Of a stretch of DNA of 64,000 bases, positions 2,320-34,778 are shown one piece after another; the first letter of the stretch is position 1, and the number at the start of each line of letters is the position of its first letter. Location of the stretch: the NCBI RefSeq assembly GCF_964204865.1, contig NC_135254.1, positions 1,426,001 through 1,490,000 on the forward strand. Direction: 5' to 3'. The translations under genes and the position numbers were made by a program. Source of the stretch: Styela clava (Eukaryota). The notes beneath the pieces are model-generated. The model had not been told where the DNA came from, did not search any database, and worked only from the letters and a program-made list of their open reading frames with translations.

Positions 2320-2420
2320 GGTACCCCCCGAAGTATGTGTACCAGGTTAGGGTTAGGCCATAATTTCAGGTACAAATACTACGGGAGTCACGTGTCTAGT
2401 CTTCGAACTCATAACAAGGG
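2320..2420. mobile_element. Partial copy of the palindromic MITE family carrying GGTTAGGGTTAGG
   Basis: GTATGTGTACCAGGTTAGGGTTAGGCCATAAT is shared with complete copies at 58569-58785 and 59147-59340. Confidence 0.7.
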
Positions 2421-3390
2421 CCATAATTTGTTTATGCAACGACAGGTGATTTTCTTTTGGTAAAAGGAAATTGTTCTGGATTAAATACTTACCAAACTTT
2501 AGGAAGCTGGTTGGAGAAAGTGAGATTTACAGAAATATTGTTTGTCACGATTTGTGACGAATGAATGTACATAACATTTTTTAAAAACATACAAACCAGG
2601 ATGTGCTAAATAGGCCTATAGTTTCATACAGACATACTGATGCACAAAAATTCTTCAGTTTAAAATCGATAGTGAGAATTGTTGTCTTGTTCTAGAATAG
2701 CAAGGCAATTCATCACAGTAAAACCATAGTAGCTTCAGAAATAGGCTTATTTTTATCTTTTGTCATTTCAGATCATATTCTGGTCTTAGTTTCGAAGGTG
2801 TACTTGGATAGTATCTTATTTTCCTTTTGAAGTTTGTCTTTGCTTTCTCAAAACCTTAAAGTGTCACGTAATCAAACTTGGTTTTACTGTGGCGATTCAG
2901 GTTGTAAAAACCTCTTGTTTGTTGAAGGTGACATAGTGCTCAATCACAATATTCACTTTTTCATGTAATTTTTTGTTTGTCCGAATATATGGTGTAAATG
3001 GCAATAAAGAAATAGTATGTTTCTTCAAGTACAAGCCACATCGCTACAGTAAAACAAAACTAGCTCATTCTTCAAAAATGAACCTTTTTAATTTGTGTCA
3101 TGACGTAGCAAAGGCCATTTTTGGGTTTTAGTTTCAATGCTGTTCCTGTTTTAGATTTCAGATAGTACCTTATGTCCATTTTTGAAGTTAGACCGTTAGA
3201 ATCCGACTATTACAACCTTTGAATAAGCAAATTGGTTTTACTGTGGCGATCCAGGTTATTTATTCCTGTAATCATCTCTTGGTTGTTGAAGTTGTGAAAA
3301 CCAATATTTACTCTTTCTTTGTTCCCCCGAATATATTACTGCAGTTTTAAATACAGAAATAGTATAGTAGTATCTCCAATTATCGGAGAT

Positions 3391-6444: not shown

Positions 6445-6623
6445 AGTCGAATTATTATTTCAAGAAATTCTGAACAAGCTCAGTGAAGCGCGAGTTTCCA
6501 AGCATGAAGCATCCAAAGATACTTCACAAATATCCAACCTATTTTCAATTAACCCAAAACCACAAAATACTGTTGAATACCGGGCAATCCTGCATTTCAT
6601 CTTGCGAGGCCTACACTTCAAAT

Positions 6624-7214
6624 CAGGGGTGTGTAACTTTTAAATATCGGAGGGCCAAAACAAATAACTGGCCAAAAGCGTGTGCCGAATCTTTATTTCT
6701 TGTTATTGATCGTATGGCTTCATTAAGACTCCTTGCGGAAATGATGAGTTGAGACGCATAAATTTCTGGAGAAAATTGCTATTCAAATTTACTAACACTT
6801 AGACTTTAAACGAAGTCGATGGGACATTTGCAGATGGTTTTATTTCCCAACTACCAAATTTGCTTTAATGAAAATGTTAGCAATTTGAAGCCCATTATCC
6901 AAGTGTTTGTCTGTCAGAACTGATTGATAGGGGATTTCATATCGCCCATTTTAGAGCAAAATTGTTTGCAAAAATATGTTTAGCAAAAAAATGCCATTTT
7001 CGAATTTTTTTCAACATGGTAAGTATCTTGGTTGAATTAATTTCAATAAAAAAATCGCCAACATTCATTTTCAAATACTTTAAATCTGTTTTACGAAATG
7101 GACTGATGACATCATACGTATAGAATAAGTATAATAGGCCGGACACCATTCTGAATTGGCACTTGTCTGCGGGTGGAAAATTTTTTCCTGCGGGCCGCAG
7201 TTTGCATACTCCTG
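6624..7214. mobile_element. hAT-type MITE present only in copy A
   Basis: Ends CAGGGGTGTGTAACT and AGTTTGCATACTCCTG; 8-bp TSD CTTCAAAT/CTTTAAAT; empty site (CTTTAAAT) in copy B near 52982. Confidence 0.85.
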
Positions 7215-8907
7215 CTTTAAATGAAGGAATCAGACTATTATTATCACTGGTATATTTATTCTGAATTCTGATTAGATTTATTAGAAACTTTCCATTTTAC
7301 ATATTTTGACTTGATAGAACAGCCACTCAGACGTGCATATTCTTAATTAAATTAAACTGTAAGTTATACATTCTTATTTAGTGTGGCAATATATTTTCAG
7401 TGTGTGTTTATATTTTTAATAAAAATCTTCAAATATTTTACTTAAGTATGCTTTCGTAACTTTTATTCAACTGTTTTGAGGTAATTGATGCACAACTTGC
7501 ACAAGTTAAATTAAATATAATACTTTTTGATCCCTAATGCAACCAATATGTCACAATTCTATTTCTCATCATTGTTCTTTGTTGATGAAGTATAATGCCC
7601 CCATTTTTTATACATTCTTTTATTACTGTAAATATTAACTAATCTGTGTATTCTTGTGATTTAGCTTACTGTAGGCGATAATATATTAAGTCTTGTTTTT
7701 ACAAGAGCATTTTGGGATTTATAACTCATATAGAGATGTAACCTGGATATACTGGGAGTAGCTGTACCTGGGTATACTGAGCTGAACAGTCTGGTGAATG
7801 AAACGAGTAATTCTTGAATGGTTTTCATATTTAATTTTTTGATGAATTTCCAAATTTCCAGTCAAATTTTCTTTGAATTGAAACTGGTTTCGTAAACAGG
7901 TAAAAACATAGTAAATGCTCGTAGAGGGAGAATGTTCAATAAGTGGTCACATTTGGGCACAAAACTCTGTATTTTAAATATTATTTAATTTGGAGGTGTT
8001 TTTCTGATTGCAGATATGGCATAATACGAATGCATTGCCTCAGCGTAAAATAGAGATAAAAAACTGAGTAAATGGAAATGAATACAGATATAAAATGCTA
8101 TTTTTTCTGATGCTGCAACGGCTCTCACCCCTGCGTAACTGTTTTCCCGATATTTCTCTCGCTTTCATTTTGCGTTATAAAGGTGTCTCTACTAATTCCC
8201 GGTGTCTTATGATTAGCCATTTCATGCATGGTCATAACTGAAAAGTTATTATCTGGAGTAACAATGACGTTTTATAAAGTGACGTTTTTGAGAGAGTACA
8301 CAATGAGAAAAAGGCAAATTTAGTGTCAACATTAAACGGTGGTTCTATAAATAGAATCGATTGGAATCTGGTGAGTTGGTAATCACAGAAACATGGTACA
8401 AGTAGCTCAAAGCAATAATGTCAGTTCCGAATTTGTGACCTCCTCAAATTCAATTTTGATTTTCTTTTGATTTATTATCACGATTCACTTTGAAATATAT
8501 CAATTTATAATTTTTAATACCCTTAACATATGCCCATAGTTATATTGAAAAATGTCAGATTAACAATTCTTTTTCCTGGAAATAGCTGGACTGATATTGA
8601 AGTAGCAGGAAAAGTTACAGAATAACATTTGTTCAAGCATTAACTGGACTTAGTTAAATAAAAGTCTCACTGCCATGATAATAAATACCAAAATGAAACT
8701 ACAGGCTCACGAGTTTCGTCATAAAAGCATGGCTCAAAATATGATTTATATTAATATTGGCGTATCGGTTATCGGCCACTAGTTGGCCGATATATCGATA
8801 TCGACGTCAAAAAGTGATATCAATCGAGCTCTCCTTGTAACCGAAACCAATTTTTTTTATCCCTCTCTCTCCCTTCCTCATTAAATAAAAGTTTCTTTCC
8901 TGCTCAG

Positions 8908-9122
8908 AAGATCTCGCCAGACATGCTGGAAGATGATAATTTTTTTGACCTTATCACAAGACTTCAAGGTCGTAGGATGGACGACCAACGATGTGAAATG
9001 AGAGACGACCAATCTGAATTACCAGCGTTTTTAAGACCAAACCCCCCAGATCCCCCCTCAAATCATCACCCCGCGGAGAATGGGGCATTGGAGGGAACGA
9101 GAACTCATTGGAAATGATGGGG
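8908..9122 (+). pseudogene. Orphan GoLoco-motif exon (GPSM1/2-like first GoLoco), copy A
   Basis: Acceptor TTTCTTTCCTGCTCAG, then DDNFFDLITRLQGRRMDDQRCEM (GoLoco pattern FFxLxxxxQxxRMDDQR). Donor GTGAGT at 9123; in-frame stop at 9115-9117 just before it. Confidence 0.8.
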
Positions 9123-9269
9123 GTGAGTCTTCTTCCACAATTTTTTTTTAAATTGTTGCGAGTGGTTAACCCATGGGGAAACAGTAAACAGTGGACATAG
9201 TCATTCTACGATGCAGCTAAAGAGAATATTTTTTTTAATGGATCGTTGTGTTATTATGTTGTTCTTTTT

Positions 9270-9668
9270 ATTTATCGATCTTAAGATCGGTAAGTATATT
9301 GATAGGTATTTGTCTGTATGTATGTCTGTCTGTATGTATGTCTGTCTGTTAGATGCACGCGATATCTCACGAAAGCGAGATTGAATCTGCTCCAGATTTT
9401 GCATGTGCATTCATCTTATCTCGGACCAGTAGCCTATTGATTTTGGGCGAATTATGTCGTATAATTAGCGAGTTATCAATCAATTATTGATATAGTGATC
9501 TAGATTTTTGTAAAGCGAGAGAATTTTGAAACCCGCCGAGTGTGTGTGTGCGATGCGCAGTGCGCAAGTTACAAGAGCGGATGAATCGAAACTGCAGTTT
9601 CTGTTTTGGGGGATCCCCTAACTATCGATCGATAAGTCTTCGGTTTCCAACCGATATTCTCGTTTTTC
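9270..9668 (+). mobile_element. DINE-1/HINE-like non-autonomous Helitron/Helentron-type repeat
   Basis: TGTC/TATG microsatellite near the 5' end, ATCGATC near both ends, 3' hairpin CGGTTTCCAACCG, T-rich insertion site. A reverse-complement copy is at 63803-64000. Confidence 0.6.
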
Positions 9669-15429: not shown

Positions 15430-16277
15430 TGCTAGAGTAGTGCCCGTTTTCAAATCTGGTAGCAAAAAGCATATATCGAATTATAGGGCAATCTCAGTGC
15501 TCCCAATAATTTCAGCTGTCTTTGAAAGATTGATAGACGGTTATTATGTTTTATAGAAAACACAATATCATAACCTTATCTATGGTGTACTAAGTTTCAG
15601 TTATTTAAAATTAATTATACAACAACACATATTCTCTAGACAAATTAACAATCGCAACAATATAACTTATTTCACTGAGTTTTACAAAATGAATTTTGGT
15701 GATGGTTTTGCCTGGTACACCAGAGCAGTAGGCTACTTTATGCGTAGTAGTATATATTTACGCTTTCTGTGTGATGTTCAAGTACATTTCCCAGGTTCAT
15801 GAGATGTGTATTACCGACATCTGCACATAGCCCAAATCTTATGACCCGGGGCATATTTTTTTCAATTATAAGCAAATATTTAAAATAAAATAATCACGCT
15901 GGCCTGGCCCCAGAGACACAAAAAAGTTACCACCCCTATTCAAATTTCAGCCATTGGGAAGTAGGTTACAGCAAGGTAATTGATATGCAACATAAATTGG
16001 TATTTACTTTTTTTTCAACATATAGGCACCAGTTAACGCTACAGTAAAAAGACAATGAACGTGGTGAGGAATATAAATATCTAGATATGGCAACCAGTAG
16101 GAACACTACAATAAATTTTCGCTCGCAAAAAACTTTGTCATCTAATTCTTCCGGCTGGTATTTGTGAGAAGCCAACTCACCACGGCATGGTTCGAGCATT
16201 TGAGTTGGATCTCTTTTTGAACAGAAGAAACCCAAGCATGGATAGGCAGATCGCCAATGCTTGGTAACGAAACTGCT

Positions 16278-16512
16278 GTGGATGCCGTTGGCTGAACAAA
16301 GTTCAGCTCGTCCGCCTTCTGGTAAACCAAGGGTCCCACTACCCAAAGAGGTACATAACATGTGGATGCCGTTGGCCGGATAAAATCCAGCACATCCGCC
16401 TTTTGGTATACCAGGGGTTCCATTACCCAAAGAGGTAAATTACTTGCGAATGCCGTTGGCTGGATTTATCCAGCTCATCCGCCTTTTGGTATACCAGGGG
16501 TCCCACTACCCC
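16278..16512. repeat. 84-bp tandem repeat, ~2.8 copies, just 3' of the Zisupton coding region
   Basis: (G/A)ATGCCGTTGGC recurs at 16281, 16365 and 16449. Confidence 0.9.
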
Positions 16513-17208
16513 TAAAACCATGCTGTTCTTTTTGGCATGGCATGGTTGTTGATTTAATTAAGCACTGCTTAATAAGCACATCGGGCATCTCCATGATTTT
16601 TCGATTTTCACCCTCGCCTCCTTTGAGTATTTTAGGCACATTCTGAATGAAACCAGCGATCGCATTCATCACAACCAAGCTGTCAAACAAATGTGTGAAA
16701 TTTTTATCAAAAACATAATATGAGCCCACTCATTCTAGCTAGATCACAACAAGCAATATGATGAAATGATTCCAGGCACTGGAGCAGTGCAGGAATGAAT
16801 ACAAAAGCTAGCTCACGAAATTGTCTTCAGGTAGACAATACTAAGTGCAGCCCTTCATCTGGACAAATTTAGAGACTACCAGGGCTACTCAACTATTTTA
16901 CCAAAGATTCGTATACAGAATCTCAGGATTACAGACGTGTCTTTCAGTTAATATACCCAGCAGTGCGCCTAAATATATTTTAGTACATCTAACTTCAAAG
17001 TGTTATATATTGATAAAATAACCTTCGAAAGTATAAATAAAATCAGTAAAAGGAATTCCTCATATATCCAAGTTATTGAGTTGAGATACGTTATTATTTA
17101 CGTAAAAATACGAGTTTCAGTTATTTCCAGTTCGAAATTATTATATTGAAACCAGAAGTATGTGTACCAGTTTGAGATTAGGCCATACTTTAGGTACAAA
17201 CACTACGG

Positions 17209-18338
17209 CAGGGGTTCTCAAACTTTTTGTGTTGCGGAGCCCTTGAAAAAGTTGACTATTATTCACGGAGCCCCAAAATAAATGTTAAAATTGTTACTTT
17301 CCGAATAATATTTCTGAGTAAGTCAAAAGTAATGTACTTATTTTAAATGATTAACCTCTTTTAATAGGGTTAATACAAGTCATAAATGAATCTAAATGTA
17401 AAAGATGAATTATATATACTAAAGCTGTAAACTTGATACTTGACAAACATATTAATAAATTAGGGGTCGGATCTTTTACCTTTAGATATTTTTGAAAGAC
17501 TTAAAAGGCCGCTAATAACGTACTCGATTGCATTTTGTTACGATCGCCGATTGTTTTCGTCAGCATGGCGGTGTTTATTCTCCCTAAATCAAAAATTTTC
17601 CTCGACATATACATGTATGATGTATTGTTCCACATTGACGAGGAGTATTGCTTTTTTGTTCTCGTGGGGAATTATGAGTTCAATGTGAAAAACATGTTAC
17701 CATATTATAGTCACCGGAGACGAAATGCTAAAAATAATAAATAATAAAAGGTAAATCCGCAACTCAAATTTCTTGATTGAAAAGCGGCATACTGAAATAT
17801 TAAAACTAAAACTTAAAATGGGAGATAACACTATAAGTTTTGTTTCAGCAGACTCACGTCAGATTAAAAACACGTTCATAGACATTGTGAATCAAAAATT
17901 TGGTGTTATGTTGGGTTTTCTTTGGTTATTCGTCGTAGCAACTGCGAAACCGAAACACAGTCAATTGTGCGCGCGATGTACCTATTTTTCCATTCTGAAA
18001 CTACCGACGGAGCCGCATGCAATGAAATAAATTTCCATCTTTCGTATTTTGCCCCGACCTCTTGTTTTTTAAACGGCGACATCTTGCTCGTGAGTGCGAA
18101 AGAACAAAATCAAGCTTGACAAATCCCAAGATCGCAAAAATACGACTGCAATTTATGTATAGTTGGCAGTTTTTCGCGTATTTTATGTTATTTCAGAATA
18201 GTAGTCTTTCATTTCAGTAATCCTAATAGTAAAATTAGCCAATTCAGTATTTTAAAAAGTAGTCGAATAGCTTGCGGAGCCCCTGGGTTTCTCTCACGGA
18301 GCCCTGGGGCTCCGTACGGAGCACTTTGAGAACCTATG
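17209..18338. mobile_element. hAT MITE inserted into a GGTTAGG-family MITE (17155-18430), within a Zisupton intron
   Basis: TIR CAGGGGTTCTCAAA/TTTGAGAACCTATG; perfect TSD CACTACGG. Confidence 0.88.
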
Positions 18339-18639
18339 CACTACGGGAGTGACCGAACTGGTAATAGAACTAAAACAAGGAAAATTGAAATAAAATAATG
18401 GCCCAACCTGGTGCACATACTTCTGGAGCACCAAATTTCCACCCTTCTTGCAACCCTCTCCAAACTAAGCCCATTGGCGCCATACCCTAGATACGCCACT
18501 GACAAATACTAATTTATAATGTAATTTTAAAAAATAAATGTGAGAACAAACCCAAGTTCCATGAGGCGTCGCAGTGCCACACATGCTGCACACACTGTTC
18601 ATATCTAAGGACATTGAGGTAAATATGAATAGAATAAAC

Positions 18640-20495
18640 TAGGCTTGCACGTAATTGACAAAAATCAATTCCGTAATTACGGCCAAATCGATTACGTAAT
18701 GACCCCGTAATTGCGATATTTTTCCACACATTTAAACCTATCATAACAACCAATCGAATCCACTTCATTTTCGATTGGGACATCGAGTTTGGGTTTTCAT
18801 ATTCCTGGCAGTACTACACGCCGGCGACAGATGCTAAGACAAGAGTGAATTCAAATTAATTTTATTCTGATTTTTATCTTTTGGGCTAGCTTTGATTTCT
18901 TTTATCACCTTCGCAAATTAACCGTCCCAATTTTATGCGATCAATTTCATCATTACCGACACTGGTATACGGATATTTATGAAACGATAGTTGACTTTTT
19001 TTAAATCGTATTAAAAAAAATGTCGGGTTTCCAATTTATCAATGCCACGACGAGCGTATTCTCTCGTTTTTTAATTACACTTGCGCTTGCCTCGCGACGA
19101 AGACTTGTTATTGCACCGTTTTTAACATTATTCGACTTTACTACCTAGTCAGCATTTTATAATAATTATAGATGCCAACTTATTGACGTTATTCCGATTA
19201 CCATGCTTCATTTTACATTAAATCATTTCGCGGCCTAAATGTTGTAACATTATTTGCGACAAATTTAGATCAAATATTAATTATTTGCGCATAATTTAAA
19301 TACCGTACTTATATGACATGCCTTTTCCGAAAATACAAAGTTATATCGCAAAAAATGCATATTGTGACATTTATTTTGCACTCATGAAAAAATTAACTCA
19401 TTTTTCTAACTCAAGTCGACGATCCTATCGGCCAAGATTGACACAAATTTGGTCGAGTGTCGGTGGTATTCGAGAATCAAAATAAGTTGCCGCATTTGGT
19501 AAAAACAGTTAATCATATTTGGCCGAAATATTGCGAGGCATTGTGGAAAACCTATTGAGCAAGGACAAGTCCGGACTGATATAAAACGATGAAACCGGTA
19601 ACAGAACATCAAGGTTTTGTAATTGAAAATGGTTCTCGCACAGAATAAACACACTGGCTCCTACTTGATATTTGATAGTAGTTAAATTGAGAATATTGAA
19701 CTGTTAAAAACAAAAAAAAAACGATCGTCGAAATTCCCAAATCTCGTTGCCTTGGTTAAACATAATCCAATGATCAGGACATTTTCAATTAAATACTGCA
19801 CAAAGATAAACATTTAGGTTACAATTTAGCTTTTTTTTTAAATTTTAATCATGCATTGTGGTGGAGAAATCCCACTATTTAAATACGGGTAACTATAAAA
19901 ATAGAAAATAATTCTGGATTCGATTTAAGTCATCTAAAACAGTGGTTCCCGACCGCCGGTACGCGGACCGTCAACGGTCCGCAAAGGATTATTACCGGAT
20001 CGCGGGAAATCCCGTCATATTGTTGTTTCTCTGCCGTCTCAATCGCTTTACCGATGCCGAAAAGACGAAGTTGCGTTGGTTCATTACGCAATTTCTCTTC
20101 CGTCGTCATATTGCTGATTTTTACCGGATCGCGGGAAATCCCGTCATATTGTTGTTTCTCTGCCGTCTCGATGCCGAAAAGACGAAGTTGCGTTGGTTCA
20201 TTACGCAATTTCTTTCCGTCGTCATATTGCTGTTTGATAAGCACGACATTAATTATCACGGTGACGTATTTGGCAAGAGAGAGAAAAGTGAGAAAAACGG
20301 CTGCAAATACCGAAGCTCTAACTTCTTCTACTTTTTAAACTTTCACTTTTTACAATCGACGGAATTGACTGCTTTGAAGAGAGCTCGTTTCAATCGCGAA
20401 AGCGCTCGACCAATAATTACGACTTTACGTAATTCGTAACTCCCCTTCCGTAACTCGAAATAATTCCGTAAATCTGTAAATTACGTGCAAGCCGA
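18640..20495. mobile_element. Non-autonomous TIR element (hAT-like TAGG ends) containing a ~129-bp tandem duplication
   Basis: TIR TAGGCTTGCACGTAATT/AATTACGTGCAAGCCGA; both flanks contain AATAAAC; internal duplication 19992-20232. Confidence 0.7.
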
Positions 20496-22905
20496 GCAAT
20501 AAACACACAAGTTCACCGGTTCTCAACCAGTGAGTCTTTCATTCAAAATATTAAAGTGAAAGTGTCCATTTTCAAACAAACATCCTGATTTTCCTTGTAG
20601 ATTTCCCCTTGCAACAAAAATCGGCCATGAAAGCAAAAAGGTTGAGCATCACTGCAGTCAGTTGAGGCTTGCATCCTCCACCACCAATTCCATGCATCTG
20701 AGACTAATAACTGGCTAACTAATCGAATATTTCAATACTAGACATTTCCAAGATCTCTTCAGCTATTTGTAACCTGTATCTTTTAATAACTTCTAATGTC
20801 GACTGAAAAGTAACTCCATCAAAACTATCAAGCAGTAAGCTTTCTGCAATCTGAACAAAACATTTAATATTATGAATTATAATATAACTATTGAAAATGG
20901 CTCAAAATTTTCTATAACCTCAACCATCAATTTGTATTGGATGTTTAATTTTTCCACTTTTGAAACATGTAATTGACTCCTTAATTCCCTCACCCTCTCT
21001 TAAAAAGAAAATCAGGGTAAATAATGGCAAACATGAATTGCTGTAATCAAATCTGTCATATTGTTTGAAAATTCATTATACCTAACGCTGCTCTTGGCTT
21101 TCTTCCAGGTTGCTACCTACCGGATCCACTAAATATAATATCCGCCCAGTAACGTTGATCACCTAACAAAAAAATTTCAAATAACTTAAGAATGAAAAGC
21201 GAAGATGGCAATACCAAAAGTTTCCAATGATTATCATCCACGTTCCATATTCCGACAATAATTTCATAGGCCGATAATGATATCTGAAAATAAATAAGGA
21301 TCATTTACAAATATGGGATACTTATGAGCAAAAATCTTCATCACAAAAGAGCTCAAACATACATCAAATACTGCAACTTTGTTGATTAGCTCTACTTTAT
21401 CTACCAAAATTTTTCAAAAGAAAAGAAACAGACCTTTGAAAGCAATTGACGGGAAAGAACAGGTCTGTTTCTTTCCAATATGTTTTTGGTCAAAAAGGAG
21501 TCTATTTGTTGCCGCCAATATTGATAAATATATTTCGATTGCCTATAACGATGAGAAAAAAATAATAATTTAGTAAAATCCTACGCACCCAGGGAGTCTA
21601 CATTGGAGGGATAGCAAATGCTTATTCTTTGATTTGTAAGGATTCAGATTTGTTTTTCAGTCATCAATTAGTATAAGAAAAATGAAATTTGCCAATAACA
21701 CAACATTATGATTTCAGGTAAATCACTGTCGTCTTTCTTGATAAGCAACCGCATAGTTTCTGCATTCGAGGGTATTTTCCTAATAACAATCAAAATTCTT
21801 ATGAATTAAAACTATATATAAATTAACGGGGACAGTTGCCACATTGAATGAGGAAATTTGCTAACTTCGTAACCTTCAATAAATGAGAACCTTTTAGGTC
21901 AAATTTGATATATGAATGATGGTGAAAAAATTTGATAAAATTAAAACTCAATAATTTTACTTTTCAATTTCTAATTTTGTAGAGTTTCCCAAAATGTCGT
22001 CGTTCATCAATTCCTCATCACACTTCTCTAGTGAAACTTCAGCTCCCTAAAATTCATATTGACAAGTAATGATCCCAATGCACAAGTAAGAAAATAGTGC
22101 AATGAAGCATTTCTTTAAAAATTAATTGTAATTTTATAACAGACAAAATAAACTACTGACACTGAATTTTAGTCAGTGTTATGACTTACATCAAATTCAA
22201 TGGAAAAATAAACAAAAAGCAAATACCATAGCATTTTGTGAAGAATGTTGGTGATCAGGAGTACGAAGCAGACGCCGGTCCGTAAGCAGTAAAAATATAT
22301 TTATAAAGAAACATGCATTTTATGTGTATTTTATGCACATTAAACAACATTCAAGAATTTTCTTCTTTCCTCACTGAAAACTAAAATCAAAATTGAATCA
22401 AATACATGGTAAGAATTTTTTGAACCAGAAATAATTTGGGATATGAAAATATATATAAAAAGAATGATAAATCAAAATGAGATCAAACACACGCCCCAAA
22501 TTTCGCCCAAGTTAATATTAATAATAATTAAAAATTTCATAAGAAATAAAAATAAATTTCATTGTATGATAAATGAGAACAACAAAGACAAAGAAATTTT
22601 AAATTGTTATTACTAGAAAATCGGGCGAAATCTTTTGGACACCCTGTATAAAAAAACATTTATCACTAAAATTTCCTCAATCTAGCAAACTGTCAAATTT
22701 TTTATGGTTAACTTTGAGGGAGTGGGATCGCAATTCCTCTTGCATCAATCGTCACACCACCTCATTACATTCATGATAGTTTTATATATCCTCACATTCT
22801 GGAGGTGTAATATCAAACGACTCATAAATAGGAAATTGATATTATCCATGTTGCAAAGAGAGAGAAAGAGCCATCTTTTTCTATTTCGGAAACATTTACC
22901 TAAGC

Positions 22906-23392
22906 CAGGGGTCGGAAACCTTTTTCGACTCGTGTGCCAAAATCGGCTAAATTTTAACGACAAAATTCTTCCGTGTGCCGACCAAAATTAAAAACAATGC
23001 TTTGTTAAATAATAAACCACTCAAACATATACAGACAGACTCACACTTCTGGAAAATATCAGTCCGATAAATAGATTTGAAAAGCTTTTTTTATTCTATA
23101 TTAGTGACACTTCTATTGCTGCATTACCGCTGATAGACATTTTACATTATTACACGTTTATATTTTGTAATTTTCAAAGAAAAACACGAACTACGGGTTT
23201 CCTCTTTCAGGCTACTCCTGTTACAAGACTTAAACAAGTTCATAACTGAGTCACAAGCATATGTAGATAAAAACATTAAATGAACACCTAGTTTCATCAG
23301 ATAATTCAGAGTTTGAAACTTCTTATCTGAAGGAGAATGATCTCGTTTCCGATACCTCGCTCGCGTGCCGAATGAATGGACTCACACTCCTG
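22906..23392. mobile_element. hAT-type MITE in a Zisupton intron
   Basis: Ends CAGGGG and CTCCTG; perfect TSD ACCTAAGC; related 3' fragment at ~58110-58215. Confidence 0.85.
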
Positions 23393-26300
23393 ACCTAAGC
23401 CAATAAAAATGTTTTATCTCATTACTGATTTACCTGCCTCGGGCCATTACAGCATTTTGTTGTTCTGCTACACTTGAGTTTACGTCAAGCATGCAGTTCC
23501 GAAGATCCCGACCTTTCAGGTCCTTTCTTTATAGATTTAGTGTGAAACCTGTCGAGTAAGCTGTAATACTTTTCAGGATTTGCATCTGGGTCTATTTCTA
23601 CTTTTTTTTAACGAGCCCTCCTTTTGTAGTAAAAAAATTTTTTGCTCCACTCGTATAGCTTGCCTTTATATGGCTCAAACATGTCTGGGAGGCGATATTC
23701 ACCATGATGAGCAACCTGAAAGAATCAATACTTCTGATCCATATGTTATTGCAACTAAGATAAACCAACATAAACTTTCACACTCTATGCTTCATCAGTA
23801 TAATTTCAAGTTCTAAACATTGATACTGAAAATTTTAAAATCCAGCTTTAAATATTGAGAGATTGGATTTCTGAATTGAGAAATAAACATTCCGATTTGT
23901 AACCTCTCACTGAAAACTACCTGTGATGCAATATCTGGAATGTATACATTTGGACGTTGTTTGAATGACAATAATCCATCGACATGGTCTCTTGTCGATT
24001 CCTGTCGAAGAGTGTATTTCATATACACACACACGGCATGTGGACATCTAAAATGAACGATGCCACCTAGGAGTAGAAAGATATATCTTTCGGCTTACTG
24101 TTGATACAAAATATGAGTTAGCAAGTGTTACAAGGGCATTCTGAAACCTGACACTTTATCATATGGCCAGTTATGCACATTTGTGTATACTAAACTTCAC
24201 AAAAGGAGCTCAATATGTCATAGATTCCCAACTTTGTTTATATTTCTTCTGAAATATAAAAAATATGTTATAAATATTTTAAGACAAAATTGTCCCACCA
24301 CATTTCTTCATGATCTTTTACATTTTTGGATGTATATCTTTGAAAAGTACTGATTCATGCAATCTGTTCTTTATTTCCCCCACCACTCAATCCAATTCTA
24401 CAACACAGGTCCTTCAGTTTCGCAAGGCTCTGAAAGTCCCTACACTTTTTTTCTTTTTCTACACTCCTGAAACTACACTTCAGGAAACAACAAATTGTGC
24501 ATATCTCAAACCTACTAAAAAGCAACATATTTACAATTGATCTTATCATTTTGCTTCACTCAGCTCATCTTATCCCCAGCCCAGTACATATCCATAATAT
24601 ACTTCTTACTAATATCACATTCGTCCTACTCCATTAGCTATACTCACATTTGCTTTGTCATGAAGTATGTTCATGATTTCTTCATGGGTGACGGTTTCAT
24701 CTGATTCTTTTTTTTTATCAGGGGCTCCAACCAAAACACCCTTTTTATATTCAGTGTTGAGGACTACGCCTCTTGATTTTTCGCCAATTCATGGTACTAT
24801 TTGTTAAAGTGACTCCAAAGATTATTTAATGAATGTTTTAATCAAACAGCAATAAATGTCCAAAGCAACACGTACAGATATAAGCAATACCAACTGCGCT
24901 GTGCACCAGACTACCGAGTGCACAAGACCAAATCACCTTCACAGGTGGTTGGTCACGATCAGTCATCTGTAACTGATGACATCAAAGGTCATGCTCAACC
25001 ATCTGGGAAAATGCTAGTTGCCAGAAATACAATTAACAATCTCCCTAATTTTCAATTTCGAATAAAAGTTAACATAATGCATTCAGCAGTTCGTTTGAAG
25101 ATGCTCCTTTCTTAGTCAAACAATCTGCTAATTGTTGATCACTCGGGAGTTTCTTTATGCCGGAGATTTGATGGGATGAAACCATTTCTTTTAAACCATA
25201 AATGTCAGTTCTGAGACGTTTCTCTGATACAGCTTTTGTCGACTTAATTGCATCACAAAGGCTTTGACTATCCGTACAACATTCAATGCCAAATTTTTCT
25301 GGTTGAACATCTGACAAACAGAGAGTTTCAGCAAAAAGTGTGCTTCTCACAACTCTTTTGATTCGCTTGGATTGCCAACATAAATGTATTTTCCTGTTCC
25401 CAACAATCATGAATATAATATGACCACCTTGGGTGCCTCCATCACACAAATTACCGAACGATGCATCGCTATAAACAAGAAACTTAACTTCATTGTCATT
25501 GAAGGCAGGAAATTTCAAAGTGATCTTTTGTGCTTTCAGTTGCTTGACAATTTTTTTAACTTCCATGACAGTTTTAACAGTGCAATTCTTCAAAGCAGAT
25601 GTGAGTGTAGATGTTGCAAATGATACATCTGGCCGAGTTTGGTTTAAGACCCACAGTATCTGGCCAAGTAAAGATCGAACCTTCAAGACATCAGCTTCAA
25701 TTAACAGCTCACTTCCACTCTTAGTTTTCAATGAACGAATATCAATCGGAAGCAGTGATTCAATGTATTTGTGCTGACTGAGAGTGATATCTTCCTTATC
25801 AGTCTTCAATTCAAGTCCTAAATATTTAAAACTTTCAGTATATTCCACTCCAACTTTGAAGTGCTCTCTCAAACTCTTGATGAATTTGCCTTCGAATTCT
25901 TCCGAACCTCCCCACAGAAAGTCGTCCACATGCAAAGCGATCACCCCTTTTAAACCATGATCGAAATAATAGAATAAAGCAGGATCCACTACAGAGATAC
26001 GGGCACCTAATTTCAGATGAGTTTCTTTAACACTTTCGTACCAATACATTGAGGCATCAGTAAGCCCATATACGCATTTCTTCAATCGCCACACAACATT
26101 TCGCTTCTGTATTTTCTGATCAGGTGGTTTGATAAAAATACCACGCTCAAGAGATTTTTCTTGTAAGAGGGCAGTTTTAATATCCATAGTTTTTGGCGAT
26201 CATTTCTTTTGTGCAAGCAGTGCTAAAACAAGTCTGAGACTTTCTTTAGAACATGTTGGGGAATCCGTTTTCAATTCACTGAGACAATCTTCTTCAAAAC

Positions 26301-27539
26301 CTCTAACTACTAGTCTAGCCTTTGGTTTTGGTCCATTGTCAGTCTTTTTTATTGAACATACCCATCTTGTACTTAACAACTTCTGGCCTTTATTCTCTTC
26401 CTCTGTGTAGACATCGTTTTGCTTCCAGCTGTCCAGTTCCTTCATCTTTGTTTCAAGAAAGAGATCTTCGTTAATCAACATCACTTGATCAACAATTGGT
26501 ATTTCTTCAGCTGGTAAATCATCCATAATAGATTCTCAACAGTGTCAAGGTCAATGGATGACTTTGTGCCTTTTTCAGATGAAGGTAGCAAATATTCAAT
26601 ACCAGCTACTGTATTTTCCTGTTGCCTCACCAGCCCGTCCAAGTACTTTTGCAACTTTTTTATTGCCAGTTACATCATCTTTGAATTCTACTATTTGACC
26701 ACGTTTAGGATCTTTCTTCACAACAGGTGAAGGCGAAGCGCACCATTATATACCGAAGATTCATTTCCTTGATCAGTCTGATTTAAATCTTCCTCGTCAT
26801 CTTCATCATAAAGCATCTCTTCTACTTTTGGTTGCGATTCATCACCTGATATCTGTTCATCACCCTGTTCAACTTCAACTTCTCTTTGTTTATCATGCAT
26901 CAGCCTGTATTTATGTACACGTATAACCAGTCCGCCATGCCTAAGGAATACTACACATCCATCAGCACCAATAACTTTTGTCGGGCCTCTCCATTTTTCT
27001 GAATTCTCTGGCTTGTAATAAACAGTGTCTCCGGTCTCATAAATTTCATCGCCATGAGACCTGATTTGTTTTTACAAAGCTCTTCGAATTCGTTCACTAC
27101 ACTCTGATTCAATAAAGGCTTTTCTCGAAGCATGCAGAGCATTGAGATGAGAAGCATCTACATCACTCACAGAAGTGCCATCCAACGAAGGAGGTTTGTT
27201 TGTTAGCAAAGAAGGAAGATTGGGATTCCTCCCAAATACCAGCTGATAAGGGCTGTAACCATGAACATTATGCAATGAATTCAGAGACCAGGAAAATGCT
27301 GTTTTCCAATCTAATGATTCAGATTCTCTAATTTTCAGCAAAATTTCAGTTAGAATAGAATTATGCCTCTCAACTAAGCCATTGCTCCATGGACTTTCCG
27401 CTGCACCCTTCAGCCATGTCACGAAAAACTGCATTGTTGAATTCTCCTCCATTGTCTGTGAATACCTGCCTCGGAGGTCCGTATATGGTTATCCAATGTG
27501 ACAAAAATTCACTTGCTATGAACAATGAAGACTTGGAAC

Positions 27540-29851
27540 CAGGGTTGTCCAAAACGAATCGAATATTCGAATATCAAAGTATTCGAATACCTTTTCGGCT
27601 AATTTTCGAATAATTCCGAATAGTAGCCACTTTTCGCTGTAAACGTGGTGTTTCCTTTTAACGGGAATCTTCAAAGGACTTTTTACGCTGTCTCACGTAT
27701 TGTAATGACGATGAAATAGAATCGGCACTTTGATTGTTTATATTCTGTGCGACCGTACGTCGCATAGTGTTGCGACACATTTGCACGTTTGCGTGGGTGG
27801 GCATTGCCGACATTCGTGTACGTGGCTTTTAATTTACAAATTCATTTCCATTACGTCGAAAAATTGAGAAAGTATGTTTATTTTATTTCTATGTGGCCTA
27901 CTTATTATTCGCATGAGTCTTCTCAAGCATGATTTGTGTAACCTTATATTTCTGTCTTAGGGTCTGCCAATCATGATATTTAATCGCAGGCTGGTTATCG
28001 TTACTTTAAAGAGAAACACGGCCACCGAGATAAAGTGATTTGTGACCCTTTCGTTTTGCCGATTCAGCAGAACACGACAGGGATAGGAAAACACAGCCGT
28101 GAATAGCCCGTGGACGTACAGTGTAGTACTTATCACATTCCAAAATTATTTCGACATTCGAGTTAATAGGTTGTCTAAAATGATTGCCGCTTTACAACTT
28201 AAATTTACCGCTCATTTGGTAAAAATAGTTAATTCTGTGAGTATGATTCTACCAAACTAACATGATCTGGTTCTAAACATATAAAATTATTAGCGCATAT
28301 CAGCATTACTGAACAACAGGGACACAATTTTTCTACCCGTCTTATTGGAGGCCTATATGGAAAAACCCCTTTTTTGAGTGCTAAAAATAGACATCGTCCT
28401 ATTTGCCACTGGACTTTTTAGCGGGGAAATACGGTATTTATAGCCGTCATTGTTACGATATCCAATAAATTGTCACAAGTTGGAAAAACAAGTCGATTTA
28501 TTAGAAAATAATTTCTGGCAAATAATTCTGATAACGATAGTTGAAAGTATCGATCCTTTAACAGGATGATTTTTTGTGACGCAAAATAATCCAATCCATG
28601 ACTGGTACCAGCATTTAAAATGTCATGCCGTATTAATTTGATTCTGTTCAACGTTACTCAACGTACTCGACAATCTGTGGACATAAAATGTGTGGTAAAC
28701 TGACCGATATTATTAAATATTGATTCCTATTTTTATATTGATAAAATAATGAAAGTATTAATACCAAATACAACGGGTATTTGTGGACATGAAATACGTG
28801 GTAAACTGACCAATTATAATTAATTTCGGATTCGTATTTACAAAATAATAAAACTATTATAATTCTAAAATGCAACGGCGATCTGTGGCCTTAAAATGTG
28901 TGGTAAACTGCCCGATTTACCAACATTTGAGTTATGATAATAGAATTAAATTAACACAGTAAGGCATTTTAAGTAGTGGTATCGGTCATGGATTCGGATA
29001 TTTTGCGCAGCACAAAATCATCCTAGTGAAAAGTCCATACTTTTAAATACAAACCAATGGCAACCATTATCCAAATTAGTTCCCAAGAGCGGGATAAAGT
29101 ATAAATTCTTTTTCCGACTTGTGACAATTTTTCGTGAGTACGAAAATAAGAATCAAGAACTAATTATATTCGGCACAATATCACGGCAATTTGTGGACAT
29201 AAATTGTGTGGCAAACTCGCGATTAATATTAATATTTGATTCCTATTTTCGTATTTACAAAATACAACGGCGATGTGTGGTAAACTACCCGATTATAAAT
29301 AGTTTTTGATTCCTATTTTCATATTTATGAAATAATAAAAGTATTATTACTCAAACATACAACGGCGATCTGCGGAATTAAAATGTGTGGTAAAGTTCCC
29401 GAATATAATTAATTTTTGATTCGTATTTTTGTACTCACGAAAAAATTGTCACAAGTCGGAAAAATACCTCATACTTTATCCCCGACAAATAATTTGGATA
29501 ATGGTTGGTATTTAAAAGTATGGGCGTTTTACTAGGATGATTTTGTGTTGCGCAAATATTCAAATCCATCATCGATACCACTATTGTGTATTAATTTAAT
29601 TCTGTTAACATGACTCATGGTATATAAAATATATACTGCAATAATCTGCAAATATGAAATGCCTGGTAATTTGGCTAGGTTGTAAATTTAGATAGCAGTT
29701 ATTCCATTGTTTATTTATGGAAATTCCTACATACATTTAGATAAGATTCAATTAGTGAATTTTATTTTCGAAGTATTCGAAATTTCATATTCGAAAAAAA
29801 TATTTTCGAATGTATTCGAAATAGTGAACTATTCGATATTGGCCATCCCTG
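27540..29851. mobile_element. Non-autonomous hAT element inserted in the copia integrase
   Basis: TIR CAGGGTTGTCCAA/TTGGCCATCCCTG, subterminal ATTCGAAT motifs, perfect TSD CTTGGAAC. Confidence 0.92.
28930..29617. repeat. Foldback structure: ~240-bp imperfect inverted arms enclosing tandem subrepeats
   Basis: TTTTTCCGACTTGTGACAATTTTTCGTGAGTAC (~29110) pairs with GTACTCACGAAAAAATTGTCACAAGTCGGAAAAA (~29431). Subrepeat AAATGTGTGGTAAACT also occurs at 28670-28920. Confidence 0.8.
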
Positions 29852-31460
29852 CTTGGAACTAATAATCTATCCAGAACTAAACCTGGTGAACATGTCGATA
29901 GTATGCATGTACCATAAATTTGTTCCAAGCTGATGGAGATCCATGGCTATAACCTCGTTGAAATCAGTTGCACGTGGCAACCCAACACCCGGTTTTGGAG
30001 AAGGTTTCTTGTAAGTTTTGCAAACTTGACAATTGTCTATAACTTTCTTCAACATATTTGAAGATAACTTGTTGAGTTTTCCTGAATTATTGATAAGTTT
30101 TGATAATCGCTCATAGGAAGCGTGACCAAATTGTCAATGCAACTTTAAAAGATCTTTTGCAGAAAAAACTTCATTGCTTTCATTTGCAGTGATAAAAATC
30201 CTTGGAGTAGTTGATTTATTGTCCTTGGAAAAAGGCTGACACAGTAGTACTTCTTATTCTCCAAAGTTTTAACTGGTTTATGAAACATTTCCACTCGGAT
30301 ATCTGCAAAGTCAATCACAGTATTTGATCTTCTCATGAAATCTTTACTCAATAATAATGGTATATTTTCATCAACCACGTCACAAGAAATGGTGACTTTA
30401 GTGTCCCCAATGTATTCCGGGATTTCTATGGAATACAACGAATTGACTTTTTGACCATCACCAAACCTGAAAACCCCTCCACTATCTTCGGTGTGAATCT
30501 TTTCTGTTTCAGATTCCTTAATTCTTTGTAAATAATCAAGAAGCCAAATTTTCCCACATACAGTGCGAGTACACCCAGAATCTAATATTGCATATCCACA
30601 TAGATCTTTGGTGAACACATCCATGTCATTAACAACTGACATCACATTGCTTTCTTCTGAAAAATGATTTACTTTTCGCTCCTGATGTGGACAGGAATTT
30701 TCAAAATGCATCCTTGAATCGCAAATTTGACATCTTGCTCTGGAACATTTTGAATTTCTAGAACAATTTCTTACCCAATGATAAGTAGATCCACAAATAG
30801 CACATTGACTGATATGATGATCTTTTCTCATTGGACATGCTCGCCTGCCATGATCTTGTCGGAATTTACCAATTTTTTTTTCGAAAAATATGCCGTCTCT
30901 TATTTCACTTCTACAGAAGACGACGAAGCTCCTTCACCAAATATTCTTTTCAGTGCCGAACCCATAGACTTATATTTTAACTTGTCCACTGCTGCAAGAA
31001 CCAATTGTTTTTCTTCCAAAGCAAGATTTGTTCCTTTGAGTAGTTTACACGCCAGTACAGTGTCCGGTAACTCCATGCCAAATTTTCTCATTTTTTTGTT
31101 CACTATGTCAAATCTCGATGAGTAATCTCTGATGTTTTCATTTTCTAGTCTTACTAACTTTTCAAATTCGGTGTATGTTTCATAAGTTCTATCAGAAGTC
31201 TCACTTTCAAAGACACCATCTAATTTTACAAGTAATGTTTGCATTCCATCATCTCTGTTCTATTCATCGGAGCTTATTTCTCGATCAACTTCTCTAGCTT
31301 TTTCACATACAGACATAGGCTCAATGTAACTGCTAAAGTTTGCTTTTTCTTGTCAAGGTCTGTAATTAAACTTCACATGGAGATCTCATTCTTCCATTGA
31401 TTGTGTGGCTTCTCTCCCGTCAACAAAGGAGGATATTTGTATCCTTGAGAAGTCATTGCA

Positions 31461-31475
31461 CATCCTCTGCTACCA
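31461..31475 (-). promoter_or_regulatory. Copia primer-binding site (initiator Met tRNA)
   Basis: The plus strand reads CATCCTCTGCTACCA, matching the 3' end of animal tRNA-iMet, 2 nt inside the 5' LTR. Confidence 0.9.
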
Positions 31476-32129
31476 TTTGTTAAAGTGAATCCAAAGTATA
31501 TTTAATAAATGTTTTAATCAAACAGCAATAAATGTCCAAAGCAATAACCAAAGTAACACGTACAGATATAAGAAACACCAACTGTGCGCTGTGCACCAGA
31601 CTACCGAGTGCACATGGCCAAATCACCTTCACAGGTGGTTGGTCATGATCAGTCACCTGAGACTGATGACATCAAAGGTCATGCTCAACCATCTGGGAAA
31701 ATGCTAGTTGCCAGAAATACAGTTAACATTATTTTTTCATGGATTACATTGTGATCCTGATTCCTGAATACAAGTTCATTGCTATAATATCATGAGTATA
31801 AAAAACGAATACAGATCATACCACAAATCCCACGTCCCAGAATCTCCATTTGATAGTTTGACCAGGATCTTTGGCAGTCAACTTCATCTTCTTGGGGGAT
31901 AGAACTTTGTGGAGATTTTACTAAAATAACATTTATTTTTAGCATCAAAGTTTTATAATCAATGAATAACATTGAGCCAAAATCTAAAAAGGTGCCGAAA
32001 TTTCTAACTTTCGCAATGCAAACTTATCTAGTCATTTGTCCAAATTTTTTTGCTATGATTTTTAATGCCTTATTCAGTGCCTTATATTTAAATGCATATT
32101 GCACTTGTTATAATGCAATCATATTTACA

Positions 32130-33340
32130 TGGTTAGGTTAATAAACTACTTCTCCTGAACGTACTCATTGTAATATTTTGTAATTGCGGATAAATTATTT
32201 TGAATAGGCTATCAAGCGTTTTGTCAAGTATATCACCAACTGTCATTATTTTTGCTTGGACACAGCTTAATATTGCAGTGAGTTCAGTTTTATTCCTATC
32301 TAAGATTAATGGATTGTGCCAAATAATTTCCTGTGATATTTCTGCATAGTTTTGTGGCTGATTCCGTTCTAAGCTAACTTGTTTGAATGAGTTAATAATA
32401 CTTGTATAAAATTTTAGAACATTGATATTAGTTTCGAATTTAAAATTCAAATGTAAACATTCTAAATTACCTTTTGACATACTTCAAAATACTTATTTAC
32501 ATAAAATTTTGCTCTATTAGCCCAAGAACTCATATCCCCCTGAAGCAATTTGCAATGCTTTATTTCAATTCCTAACGTTCATCATTTTTATATCCTCTTC
32601 ATTTTGTTCACTACAACTGATATTCCTACTGATCATTTGCGCTTTTTCATTCCAAATAAATTTCCAAATAATTACTTCCAATTTCTGAATATATTTTTCT
32701 GGCATAAATTCGAAAGTGAACATGTACCATAATTTTGATAGTAGCAATGTTTTAGCTATAAGAACTCTTCCAACAATAGTTAGATTCCGCCCTTTCCAAA
32801 GATTTACAATTTTTTGTATTTTTGTCAAAATGTTCAACCAGTTTTTATCTCTAGACTTATGGGTATTTCCAATATATACCCCTAGTAATTTAATCTCCTC
32901 ACGTTTTACAGTTATACCCTTATATGTTTCATTCAACTGCCAACTTTGAGCAGTTCCACATATCAGCAATGTACATTTGTTCTTATTTATTTTAGGACCA
33001 GTGCCACGTCGAAATAATCCCATTAATTTTAACACTGAATCTACAGATGACAATAACTCAAGGGTCAGTGTTATGTCATCTGCAAATCCTTTATAAACTT
33101 CTCTTTGATTTATGCAGTTCTTCAATCCAGTTATTTCTCTGTCCCTTTTTATATTTGATGATATTAATTCTGGAAAAAGGGGACAGCCCTGCCCCACACC
33201 TCTTTGCATCCAAATTTTTTCTGTCAAATATCCATTCACATTTATTTTTGAAGAAGCATTTTTATATAGGGTGATTATCCAATTTATGAGTTTTTTTTCC
33301 AAATCCAGATTTTTTTCAATAATTTAACTAGTATATTTCT
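32130..33340 (-). mobile_element. Truncated second Tx1/L1-clade RT fragment
   Basis: RGVGQGCPL, FADDIT, KLLGV, WKGRNLTIVGRVLIAKTLLLSKLWY; diverged from the adjacent copy. Confidence 0.85.
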
Positions 33341-34778
33341 GTCTGTCCGCCAGCAACTTTTTTTTTTGCCAAATTCAAATCCATTGCCAAATCGGATTTA
33401 TACAAATGATAGTTTTGGTGTATCCAAATATATATTTCAATATTATTGCATGAGGTCCAAATTTTATTTTTGTGATGTAATTTAGGTGATTTCATACAAT
33501 GAATAAGTATACAATGAAAAGATGTAGTTTGTTTGCAACATATATATTATGATCATTAGTTTGGTTATCCAATTGGTTTGATTTTAAGCGTTTATAAATA
33601 TTTTTGGTTGTTTATTCTTCTGAAACCATATACAATCAATTTCGGTTCTTGCTGGAGATGTATTTTGAATTTCTTTCCAATTTGTTGGAATGTATCGCCA
33701 AATGTTGCGTATTTCGAAGTTGCATTTTCTATTCAATGCAATTTTCCTGGTCTATAGTAAATTTGATTCACGAGGTCTCCTGAATTTTGTTCCACAATTT
33801 GTCCTAAAGTTAAAACTTTGGCTTGAATCCATTTAATTTCTTTTTAGTTTTGTCTCCAAAGATAAAAATGAATTAAACCAAGAGGCTTTCTAATTTTACT
33901 TCCGCTGGGGAATTTGGTTGACAGCGCGTGAGATTGAGTTCCTTGAATGCATTAATTAAGTTTAAATAAAATTGTGGTATGAGATTGTTTCTTGTTTTTT
34001 TAACGTCTAAATGCAAGCATTCCAAATTACCTCTGGAAATGAATGAGCAATAGTCATTTATATAAAATTTGGCCCGTTTACTTCAAGGTTTCTGTTCCCC
34101 TCTAAGTAATTTAATAATCCATTTCAATTGTACAGATTTTATCTGAGTGTTGATATCCATCATGTTTAATCCCCCCCTTATTTATTTTTTCCTTAATGAT
34201 TTTTTGAGCAATCAATTGTGGTTTTCCATTCCATAAAAAGTAGAAGAGTTTAGTTTGTAATTTTTTCATGAAACTTTCCGGCATAATTTCGAATCCAGCT
34301 AAATACCAAATTTTGATAACATTAGTGCTTTTGTAACCGTAATTTTTCCTATTATAGAAAGATTTCGGGCCTTCCATAGATTTATCAAGCTCTGGCTATT
34401 AAGACCCTCATTCCAATTTTTTTCAACGGAACAAGTGTTATTCCCTATGTATGCCCCTAATATTTTGATTTCATCTTTTTTTACTTCAATACCCTTGTAG
34501 TCTGGGCCAATGTTCCAATCAATTGCATTACCACACAATAAAATTTTACATTTCTGTTTGTTAATTTGTATTCCTGTACCCATTTCAAAGTGGTTTAATA
34601 TTGCAAGACTTTCATCAATAGAGGCCAAATTTATTACCGTTAAAGTTGTATCATCTGCATACGATTGGAGTATTTGGTTGTATTAAGATCTACAGGTTTT
34701 AAATATAACCTTGAATAGCAGAATAGTCTAGCATTTAATATTCACTGTCAAACTTCAACATCTATATCTGTCAACGAT

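What the first reader, a model, noticed from the sequence alone, without database searches (positions are those of the whole stretch)
16558..31920. Hidden spliced Zisupton/KDZ transposon with SUMO-protease and PHD modules
Seen: at least ten small minus-strand exons scattered over 15 kb assemble in order into a KDZ transposase, SAP, Ulp1-like protease (NHW; KHPIQIDG where the catalytic Cys region appears lost) and a PHD finger split across two exons. Splice phases are consistent where checked (EMS-N-MNSVC; W|LGCD). Established: Zisupton elements are multi-exon, related to HMGXB3, and carry SAP and (in fish) SUMO-protease domains. Inference: an invertebrate lineage coupling a chromatin reader with deSUMOylation, possibly as an anti-silencing strategy.
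Basis: partly seen in the sequence, partly recalled or inferred. Interest (0 to 1): 0.75.

Follow-up and report, generated by a model that had tools for sequence, protein, structure and literature searches.

The report
Dead copy of active Zisupton transposon
This is a broken copy of an 18-kb, 23-exon cut-and-paste jumping gene of a sea squirt whose two intact copies elsewhere in the genome encode a transposase with a likely SUMO-removing protease and a likely histone-reading finger, an add-on already described on other transposons; the few RNA fragments that bridge the catalytic exons skip them.

Summary
Observation confirmed, interpretation partly. Window 16558-31920 holds exons 8-23 of a 23-exon Zisupton-type (CxC4/HMGXB3 branch) transposase gene. 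Ten of the 16 exons are damaged, a Copia element splits exon 9, and exons 1-7 with the terminal repeat are gone. Two intact copies (17.9 and 18.5 kb, 99.95% identical over 13.8 kb, different 8-bp target duplications) give an open 1240-aa frame: zinc fingers, SWIM-like motif, CxC4, DDE core with SAP, Ulp1 protease with its H-D-C triad, PHD. The missing cysteine is a 28-bp deletion private to this window's copy. All 17 non-autonomous copies with both ends found carry perfect 8-bp duplications. The Pfam KDZ model itself does not hit. The same architecture occurs in Ciona and Clavelina proteins, the Ulp1-PHD pair also sits on fish MULE transposases, and it is in print for Ginger1 and Mutator; anti-silencing is untested. 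The scan already noted related Zisupton elements on other DNA of this genome and one other. The new lead is thin: three of three listed RNA contigs that bridge the core skip the SAP and catalytic exons out of frame, hinting at a P-element-like truncated repressor.

The parts
31822..31920 (-). Exon 8 (core insert, DCQRSW segment); undamaged
   Evidence: 99 bp, 8 mismatches to intact copy, AG/GT kept
31729..31756 (-). Exon 9, 5' piece, cut by the Copia insertion
   Evidence: alignment to intact copy
24802..31728 (-). Nested Copia-type LTR retrotransposon (LTRs 31478-31728 and 24802-25038, 88.9% identical), broken; not part of the Zisupton gene
   Evidence: LTR alignment and ends; Pfam RVT_2 E 1e-19
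24648..24801 (-). Exon 9, 3' piece
24296..24429 (-). Exon 10, SAP domain; 11-bp deletion, donor lost
   Evidence: Pfam SAP E 0.03 here, 8.8e-5 on the intact exon
23921..24066 (-). Exon 11, transposase core (CPH motif, second catalytic Asp by inference); undamaged
   Evidence: 26 matches in the genome
23434..23715 (-). Exon 12, core with DRFH and AEQ (catalytic Glu by inference); frameshifted
22713..22862 (-). Exon 13, end of core; acceptor lost, 11-bp deletion
22227..22279 (-). Exon 14, linker; acceptor mutated
21961..22046 (-). Exon 15, linker; undamaged
21705..21779 (-). Exon 16, start of Ulp1 domain; 3' half (WIMDE motif) deleted
21434..21542 (-). Exon 17, Ulp1; 20-bp deletion
21215..21283 (-). 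Exon 18, Ulp1 catalytic His (NHW); undamaged
21082..21162 (-). Exon 19, Ulp1 catalytic Asp (VDP); 8-bp deletion
20923..21004 (-). Exon 20, Ulp1 Gln/Cys exon; acceptor region deleted, and a 28-bp deletion removes the catalytic Cys and the donor
   Evidence: Cys present in C9, C4, C5:1.20 Mb and C5:0.96 Mb copies
20739..20850 (-). Exon 21, Ulp1 C-terminal helices; undamaged
18552..18604 (-). Exon 22, first half of PHD finger (CxxC ... W); undamaged
16558..16679 (-). Exon 23, second half of PHD finger; frameshifted after HSEC
   Evidence: Pfam PHD E 7.7e-9 on the intact exon
15776..16557 (-). 3' non-coding part of the element with an 84-bp tandem repeat and a degenerate internal terminal-repeat copy at 15900-15940
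31921..32141 (-). Remnant of intron 7; homology to the element stops at 32141 (exons 1-7 and the 5' terminal repeat deleted), LINE fragments follow

Best explanation
The stretch is a dead, 5'-truncated, Copia-interrupted copy of an 18-kb Zisupton-type cut-and-paste DNA transposon whose two intact copies encode one 1240-aa spliced protein that likely binds the element's ends, cuts and pastes it with a DDE core, and carries a likely SUMO-removing Ulp1 protease and a PHD finger predicted to read histone H3. Shown: ends, 8-bp target duplications, copy structure, open frame, domains, lesions. Inferred mechanism: the N-terminal zinc fingers, CxC4 and SAP hold the terminal and subterminal repeats; the RNase H core (D556, D758, E848 of the model) excises and inserts with an 8-bp stagger, also in trans on 5-7 kb non-autonomous copies; the PHD tethers the complex to H3 tails (H3K4me3 most likely) and the protease strips SUMO from the transposase or from nearby silencing and repair proteins. 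Much of the RNA seems to skip exons 10-12 and would give a 692-aa product without catalytic core, protease or PHD.
For: C9 and C4 copies 99.95% identical over 13,761 bp with unrelated flanks, ends GAGAGG...CTGTTG and different perfect 8-bp duplications. 17 of 20 fetched end-bearing loci had both ends within the 10 kb fetched, and 17 of 17 have perfect 8-bp duplications. The 23-exon GT-AG model is open for 1240 aa in both intact copies; 5 of its 22 joints are seen in RNA-like contigs (3-4, 7-8, 13-14, 14-15, 19-20); database models P0009 and P0038 give the same exons 1-8 and 1-9. Full-length relatives align end to end: P0022 50%, Ciona P0189 35%, both with CxC4 + C48 + PHD above Pfam cut-offs. 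Predicted models: protease domain matches SENP5 Z 20.7 (rmsd 2.7, 182 aligned), Ulp1 Z 19.7, NEDD8 protease Z 17.6; core matches DDE enzymes, ISCth4 Z 10.2 (rmsd 3.9, 217 aligned), piggyBac 8.3. dN/dS window vs intact copy: core 0.30, Ulp1 0.23, linker 0.99.
Against: Pfam KDZ PF18758 hit none of the proteins scanned and nothing in the genome (the genome search rang in no control either). Both folds were predicted on relatives (P0021, P0081), not on this family's own protein. 17 of 22 joints lack direct RNA support, including all four into and within the catalytic exons. PHD dN/dS is 0.60 on only 55 codons. Insertion flanks are not CpG-richer than background (median o/e 0.99, n=19, vs 1.04, n=200; p=0.77), so promoter targeting has no support from that weak proxy. 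No substrate or binding was tested.
Confidence: 0.87

Rival explanations
1. The protease acts on NEDD8 or ubiquitin, or serves DNA repair after excision, rather than reversing SUMO-dependent silencing.
For: NEDD8 protease scores Z 17.6, only about 3 below the SENPs; for the Clavelina relative the best sequence hits were ChlaDub2 and SENP8, all weak; relatives carry OTU or UCH ubiquitin hydrolases at the same place; Bao 2010 proposes a repair role.
Against: Best sequence hit of P0021 is yeast Ulp1 (E 4.8e-7) with the W-x-x-D motif aligned; all listed Foldseek rows up to rank 25 are SUMO proteases.
Confidence: 0.3
2. The gene is a domesticated host gene of the HMGXB3 kind that was spread by segmental duplication.
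For: The four C5 copies are segmental duplicates or share flanks; NCBI names relatives 'HMG domain-containing protein 3-like'.
Against: Intact copies sit in unrelated flanks with their own target duplications; 17 non-autonomous copies share the ends; no HMG box found.
Confidence: 0.03
3. The skipped transcripts are splicing noise or come from internally deleted copies, with no regulatory role.
For: Only three contigs at depth 2.2-3.5, with three different joints (8-13, 9-13, 9-14), from runs only guessed to be RNA; one contig carries variants that fit a dead copy; exon 10 has the weakest acceptor; contig tables were cut.
Against: The 9-13 contig has 0 differences from the intact copy over 329 nt; no copy lacking exons 10-12 was among the 40 scored of 908 candidates; database model P0038 has the same joint (possibly from the same reads).
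Confidence: 0.6

Closest known systems
Zisupton DNA transposons (Bohne et al. 2012; paper not held, seen only through passages of PMC12730594, PMC9297572, PMC12062965, PMC12477816)
   Same: Terminal inverted repeats, 8-bp target duplications, multi-exon gene, transposase above 1,200 aa, SAP; core 30% identical (E 3e-33, 7e-30) to proteins with the CxC7 + F-box tail described for platyfish Zisupton.
   Different: Carries CxC4, not CxC7 or F-box; ends in Ulp1 + PHD; ascidian host; imperfect terminal repeats with different first bases at the two ends. That fish Zisuptons carry a SUMO protease is recalled, not read here.
HMGXB3-like / CxC4 branch of KDZ transposases
   Same: Pfam CxC4 above cut-off; NCBI names a sister family and a fish relative 'HMG domain-containing protein 3-like'.
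   Different: No HMG box; mobile, with ends and target duplications; keeps the D, D, E residues. The link of CxC4 to HMGXB3 is recalled.
Ulp1+PHD tails of Ginger1 and Mutator (MULE) transposases (Bao et al. 2010, PMC2836005, passages read)
   Same: Same tandem at the C-terminus; 33-36% identity over about 250 aa to fish proteins, two of them MULE-linked.
   Different: Here the tail is fused to a Zisupton-type core; the tree of 32 protease domains did not resolve a transfer.
Drosophila P element splicing control (PMC4647562, passages read)
   Same: An alternative splice product with an early stop would keep the N-terminal DNA-binding part and lose catalysis.
   Different: P uses intron retention and the repressor is proven; here it is exon skipping seen in three low-depth contigs, function untested.

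Membership tests
Zisupton superfamily | Terminal inverted repeats | tested here: met
   145-bp inverted match, 89%, at the ends of the C4 copy, plus 197-bp subterminal repeats. Absent from the window copy (5' end deleted).
Zisupton superfamily | 8-bp target site duplication | tested here: met
   2 of 2 intact and 17 of 17 two-ended non-autonomous copies; criterion from PMC12730594.
Zisupton superfamily | Multi-exon gene for one large transposase | tested here: met
   23 exons, 1240 aa; 5 of 22 joints in RNA-like contigs; criterion from PMC9297572.
Zisupton superfamily | Core homologous to fish Zisupton transposase | tested here: met
   30% identity over 313-329 aa to P0125 and P0163, which carry CxC7 + F-box. 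The platyfish sequence itself was not available.
Zisupton superfamily | SAP domain and SWIM zinc finger (recalled features) | tested here: met
   SAP E 8.8e-5, just under Pfam cut-off, 23 of 37 relatives hit SAP at E up to 1, SAP structures match the core model at Z 8.5. SWIM rests on the CxC-x10-CxH motif in exon 4 only; no Pfam SWIM hit.
KDZ transposases | Pfam KDZ PF18758 match | tested here: inconclusive
   No hit on full-length relatives or in the genome (controls silent). Fish and HMGXB3-like relatives also miss it, so the model seems not to cover this branch; the KDZ-associated CxC4 hits 26 of 37.
KDZ transposases | RNase H-like DDE core | tested here: met
   Models of relatives align to ISCth4 (Z 10.2 and 9.7), piggyBac, Tn5 and integrases; D, D, E motifs conserved in 4 of 4 aligned proteins. 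Assignment of the three residues is inferred.
Peptidase C48 (Ulp1/SENP) | His-Asp-Cys triad with oxyanion Gln in the CE-clan fold | tested here: met
   H1071, D1088, Q1133, C1139 in intact copies; aligned to Ulp1 via P0021; Z 20.7. Not met in the window copy.
Peptidase C48 (Ulp1/SENP) | SUMO-specific cleavage | not testable with these tools
   Needs an assay; SENPs rank above NEDD8 protease by about 3 Z units.
PHD finger | C4-H-C3 zinc ligands | tested here: met
   All eight present across exons 22-23 of intact copies; Pfam PHD above cut-off.
H3K4me3-reading PHD fingers | Aromatic cage | tested here: inconclusive
   Two Trp at the cage positions (W-L-G-C-D, R-W-F-H); top PDB hits include Cfp1, ALFIN-like, DIDO, Spp1, BPTF, but also KAT6A and DPF; an Asp two before the first Cys resembles unmethylated-K4 readers. 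Cage positions and reader classes are recalled.

The most novel reading that the evidence does not exclude
This Zisupton family is controlled by a splicing switch like the P element's: most transcripts skip the SAP and catalytic exons and make a 692-aa zinc-finger protein that binds the ends and represses the family, while rare full splicing yields a transposase that reads H3K4me3 and removes SUMO marks of silencing at its own ends or targets.
Probability: 0.2. Interest if true: 0.65.

Novelty: new member of a known kind. Interest (0 to 1): 0.35.

Why it matters
The window copy itself is debris. The family gives two near-identical, open-frame Zisupton copies and at least 17 mobilised non-autonomous copies in a chordate that is easy to electroporate (recalled), so the long-noted but, as far as these searches show, untested role of transposon-borne Ulp1 and PHD domains could be tested directly with domain-dead mutants in an excision assay. 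A splicing switch would be a second animal case of P-element-like self-repression.

Tried and rejected
Cys loss as a family trait (pseudoprotease): rejected, 4 of 4 other family copies that retain exon 20 keep it. Pfam KDZ search: no hit, controls silent. Promoter targeting by a CpG proxy: no enrichment, low power because the background is CpG-rich. Cassette swap with MULE: pairwise scores favour it (94-115 bits to MULE-linked domains vs 22-24 to Clavelina and family-2 domains), but Ciona P0189 scores about as high as the fish ones (106 vs 107-125 bits) and the tree allows the Zisupton-linked domains to form one side (support 94/93, long branches, five near-duplicate rows dropped, P0189 not in the tree), so it is not shown. 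No run was on record as RNA; RNA-like contigs gave no listed joint for the PHD exons, which says nothing about expression. The founding papers (Bohne 2012, Iyer 2014) were not held. A first profile search failed for length. No complex prediction was run.

Full report
Check of the observation. A search of the window's genome with the core exon gave 26 matches. Two of them, on C9 and C4, are uninterrupted versions of the same DNA: the window aligns to them in colinear blocks at 85-94% identity. Mapping the exons of the intact copy onto the window finds 16 exons (8-23 of 23). Six are undamaged and ten carry frameshifts, deletions, lost splice sites or an insertion. A Copia-type element with 88.9% identical LTRs splits exon 9. 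Homology stops at 32141, so exons 1-7 and the 5' end are missing. The missing catalytic Cys is a 28-bp deletion that also removes the splice donor. The two intact copies and the two segmental duplicates at C5:1.20 and C5:0.96 Mb keep it.

The element. The C9 (17,901 bp) and C4 (18,513 bp) copies are 99.95% identical over 13,761 bp and 98.6% over another 4,182 bp, in unrelated flanks. They have a 145-bp terminal inverted match and 197-bp subterminal repeats, and each has its own perfect 8-bp target duplication. A search with the 5' end gave 96 matches from 40 scored of 112 candidates. Of 20 such loci fetched, 17 had both ends within 10 kb; these are 5.4-7.4 kb elements, none matching the gene region, and all 17 have perfect 8-bp duplications. 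The family has therefore moved recently, in cis and in trans (inference). The C5 copies have a shorter 5' end made of an inverted copy of the 3' terminus, so the 18-kb form is a composite.

The gene. A GT-AG model built by hand on the C9 copy has 23 exons and an open frame of 1240 aa; the C4 copy is open too. Five of 22 joints are seen in contigs of runs guessed to be RNA (5 of the 11 listed runs were laid). Database proteins P0009 and P0038, labelled Styela clava by NCBI, have the same exons 1-8 and 1-9. A sister-family protein P0022 (1300 aa, 50% identical) and Ciona P0189 (1283 aa, 35%) align over the whole length and score CxC4, Peptidase_C48 and PHD above Pfam cut-offs. Order of parts: C2H2 fingers, SWIM-like motif, CxC4, first Asp, SAP, CPH and second Asp, DRFH, Glu, linker, Ulp1, PHD. 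Predicted structures of relatives place the core with DDE transposases (ISCth4 Z 10.2, rmsd 3.9, 217 aligned) and the protease with SENP/Ulp1 (Z 19.7-20.7) ahead of NEDD8 protease (17.6). Pfam KDZ PF18758 hit nothing, but the core is 30% identical to proteins with the CxC7 + F-box tail of platyfish Zisupton (PMC12062965 passages). Against the intact copy the window copy has dS 0.098 and dN/dS 0.30 in the core, 0.23 in Ulp1, 0.60 in PHD and 0.99 in the linker (463 codons, fully aligned exons only). The protease was thus under constraint in the mobile lineage.

How it likely works. Shown: ends, 8-bp duplications, non-autonomous copies, open frame, intact triads. Inferred: zinc fingers, CxC4 and SAP bind the end repeats; the DDE core cuts and pastes; the PHD binds H3 tails, most likely H3K4me3 given two Trp at recalled cage positions and hits to Cfp1, ALFIN-like, DIDO, Spp1 and BPTF, though an Asp before the first Cys points the other way; the protease removes SUMO from the transposase or from local silencing or repair proteins. 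A CpG proxy for promoter targeting was negative (19 sites vs 200 background windows, p 0.77).

Splicing lead. Three listed contigs bridge from upstream of exon 10 to downstream of exon 12, and all three skip exons 10-12: 8 to 13 (X9), 9 to 13 (X10, 0 differences from the intact copy over 329 nt) and 9 to 14 (X8, with variants and a skipped exon 16 that fit a dead copy). They come from two studies, at depth 2.2-3.5. All three joints are out of frame. The 9-13 form gives the 692-aa protein that NCBI lists as P0038, which may rest on the same reads. Exons 11 and 12 are covered by other contigs, both tables were cut, and no genomic copy lacking these exons was among the 40 scored candidates. This resembles the P-element repressor (PMC4647562 passages) but may be noise.

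Comparison with what is known. Ends, 8-bp duplications and multi-exon structure meet the Zisupton criteria as quoted in PMC12730594 and PMC9297572 (passages). The founding papers were not held. Invertebrate Zisupton homologues are already reported. Ulp1 followed by PHD is in print for Ginger1 and Mutator transposases (PMC2836005 passages). Here it was found on Ciona and Clavelina relatives, on two other Zisupton-type families of this genome and on fish MULE transposases. Other relatives carry OTU, UCH or SprT-like proteases. Paper searches (listings, plus passages of the papers named and of PMC5751038, PMC3424704, PMC3706591, PMC12477816, PMC7599744) showed no description of ascidian Zisuptons, of a PHD on a Zisupton, or of Zisupton splicing control; the library lacks the key papers, so this is weak. 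Earlier scan notes describe related elements on other DNA; the 15,349-bp one equals in length the family-2 copy on C8, a different family from this one.

Verdict. Real feature, correct family, dead copy; a new member of a known kind with a known accessory module. Interest 0.35, carried by the intact recent copies and the splicing lead.

Noticed in passing
window 24802-31728: Broken Copia-type LTR element inside exon 9; a 2.3-kb repeat-rich insert at 27540-29851 is absent from the two segmental duplicates.
   Followed up: partly
window 1-9300 and 46600-56700; G000 C5:0.93-1.49 Mb: The window holds an internal duplication at 90-98% identity, and the region is one of several segmental duplicates on C5 that share the dead element, the Copia insertion and flanks.
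   Followed up: partly
window 32138-34662: Fragments of non-LTR (LINE) reverse transcriptase genes (Pfam RVT_1, E 1e-6) next to the truncation point.
   Followed up: no
L050-L051 and four other loci (C4:0.38 Mb, C8:11.75 Mb, C14:17.68 Mb, C18:1.50 Mb, C1:23.28 Mb): A second Zisupton-type family, 9.9-15.3 kb, 95-99% identical, 5 of 5 with perfect 8-bp duplications, also ending in Ulp1-like and PHD exons.
   Followed up: partly
L070:4729-9492: Intronless 1588-aa Zisupton-type frame ending in Ulp1-like, PHD-like and SprT-like (HEMAH) segments.
   Followed up: partly
L097 and L100 (C18:10.82 Mb, C10:7.55 Mb): Internally deleted sister-family copies that keep only N-terminal finger exons and the Ulp1 tail plus PHD; NCBI lists 128-aa PHD proteins of this sequence cluster.
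   Followed up: partly
P0129, P0099 (fish proteins): MULE-linked proteins with an Ulp1-PHD tail 33-35% identical to this family's tail; a swap between superfamilies is possible but unresolved.
   Followed up: partly
window 1-482, 46605-46844, 61044-61391; 58557-59352: 80- and 95-bp tandem arrays sharing a motif, and a cluster of short inverted-repeat elements.
   Followed up: no
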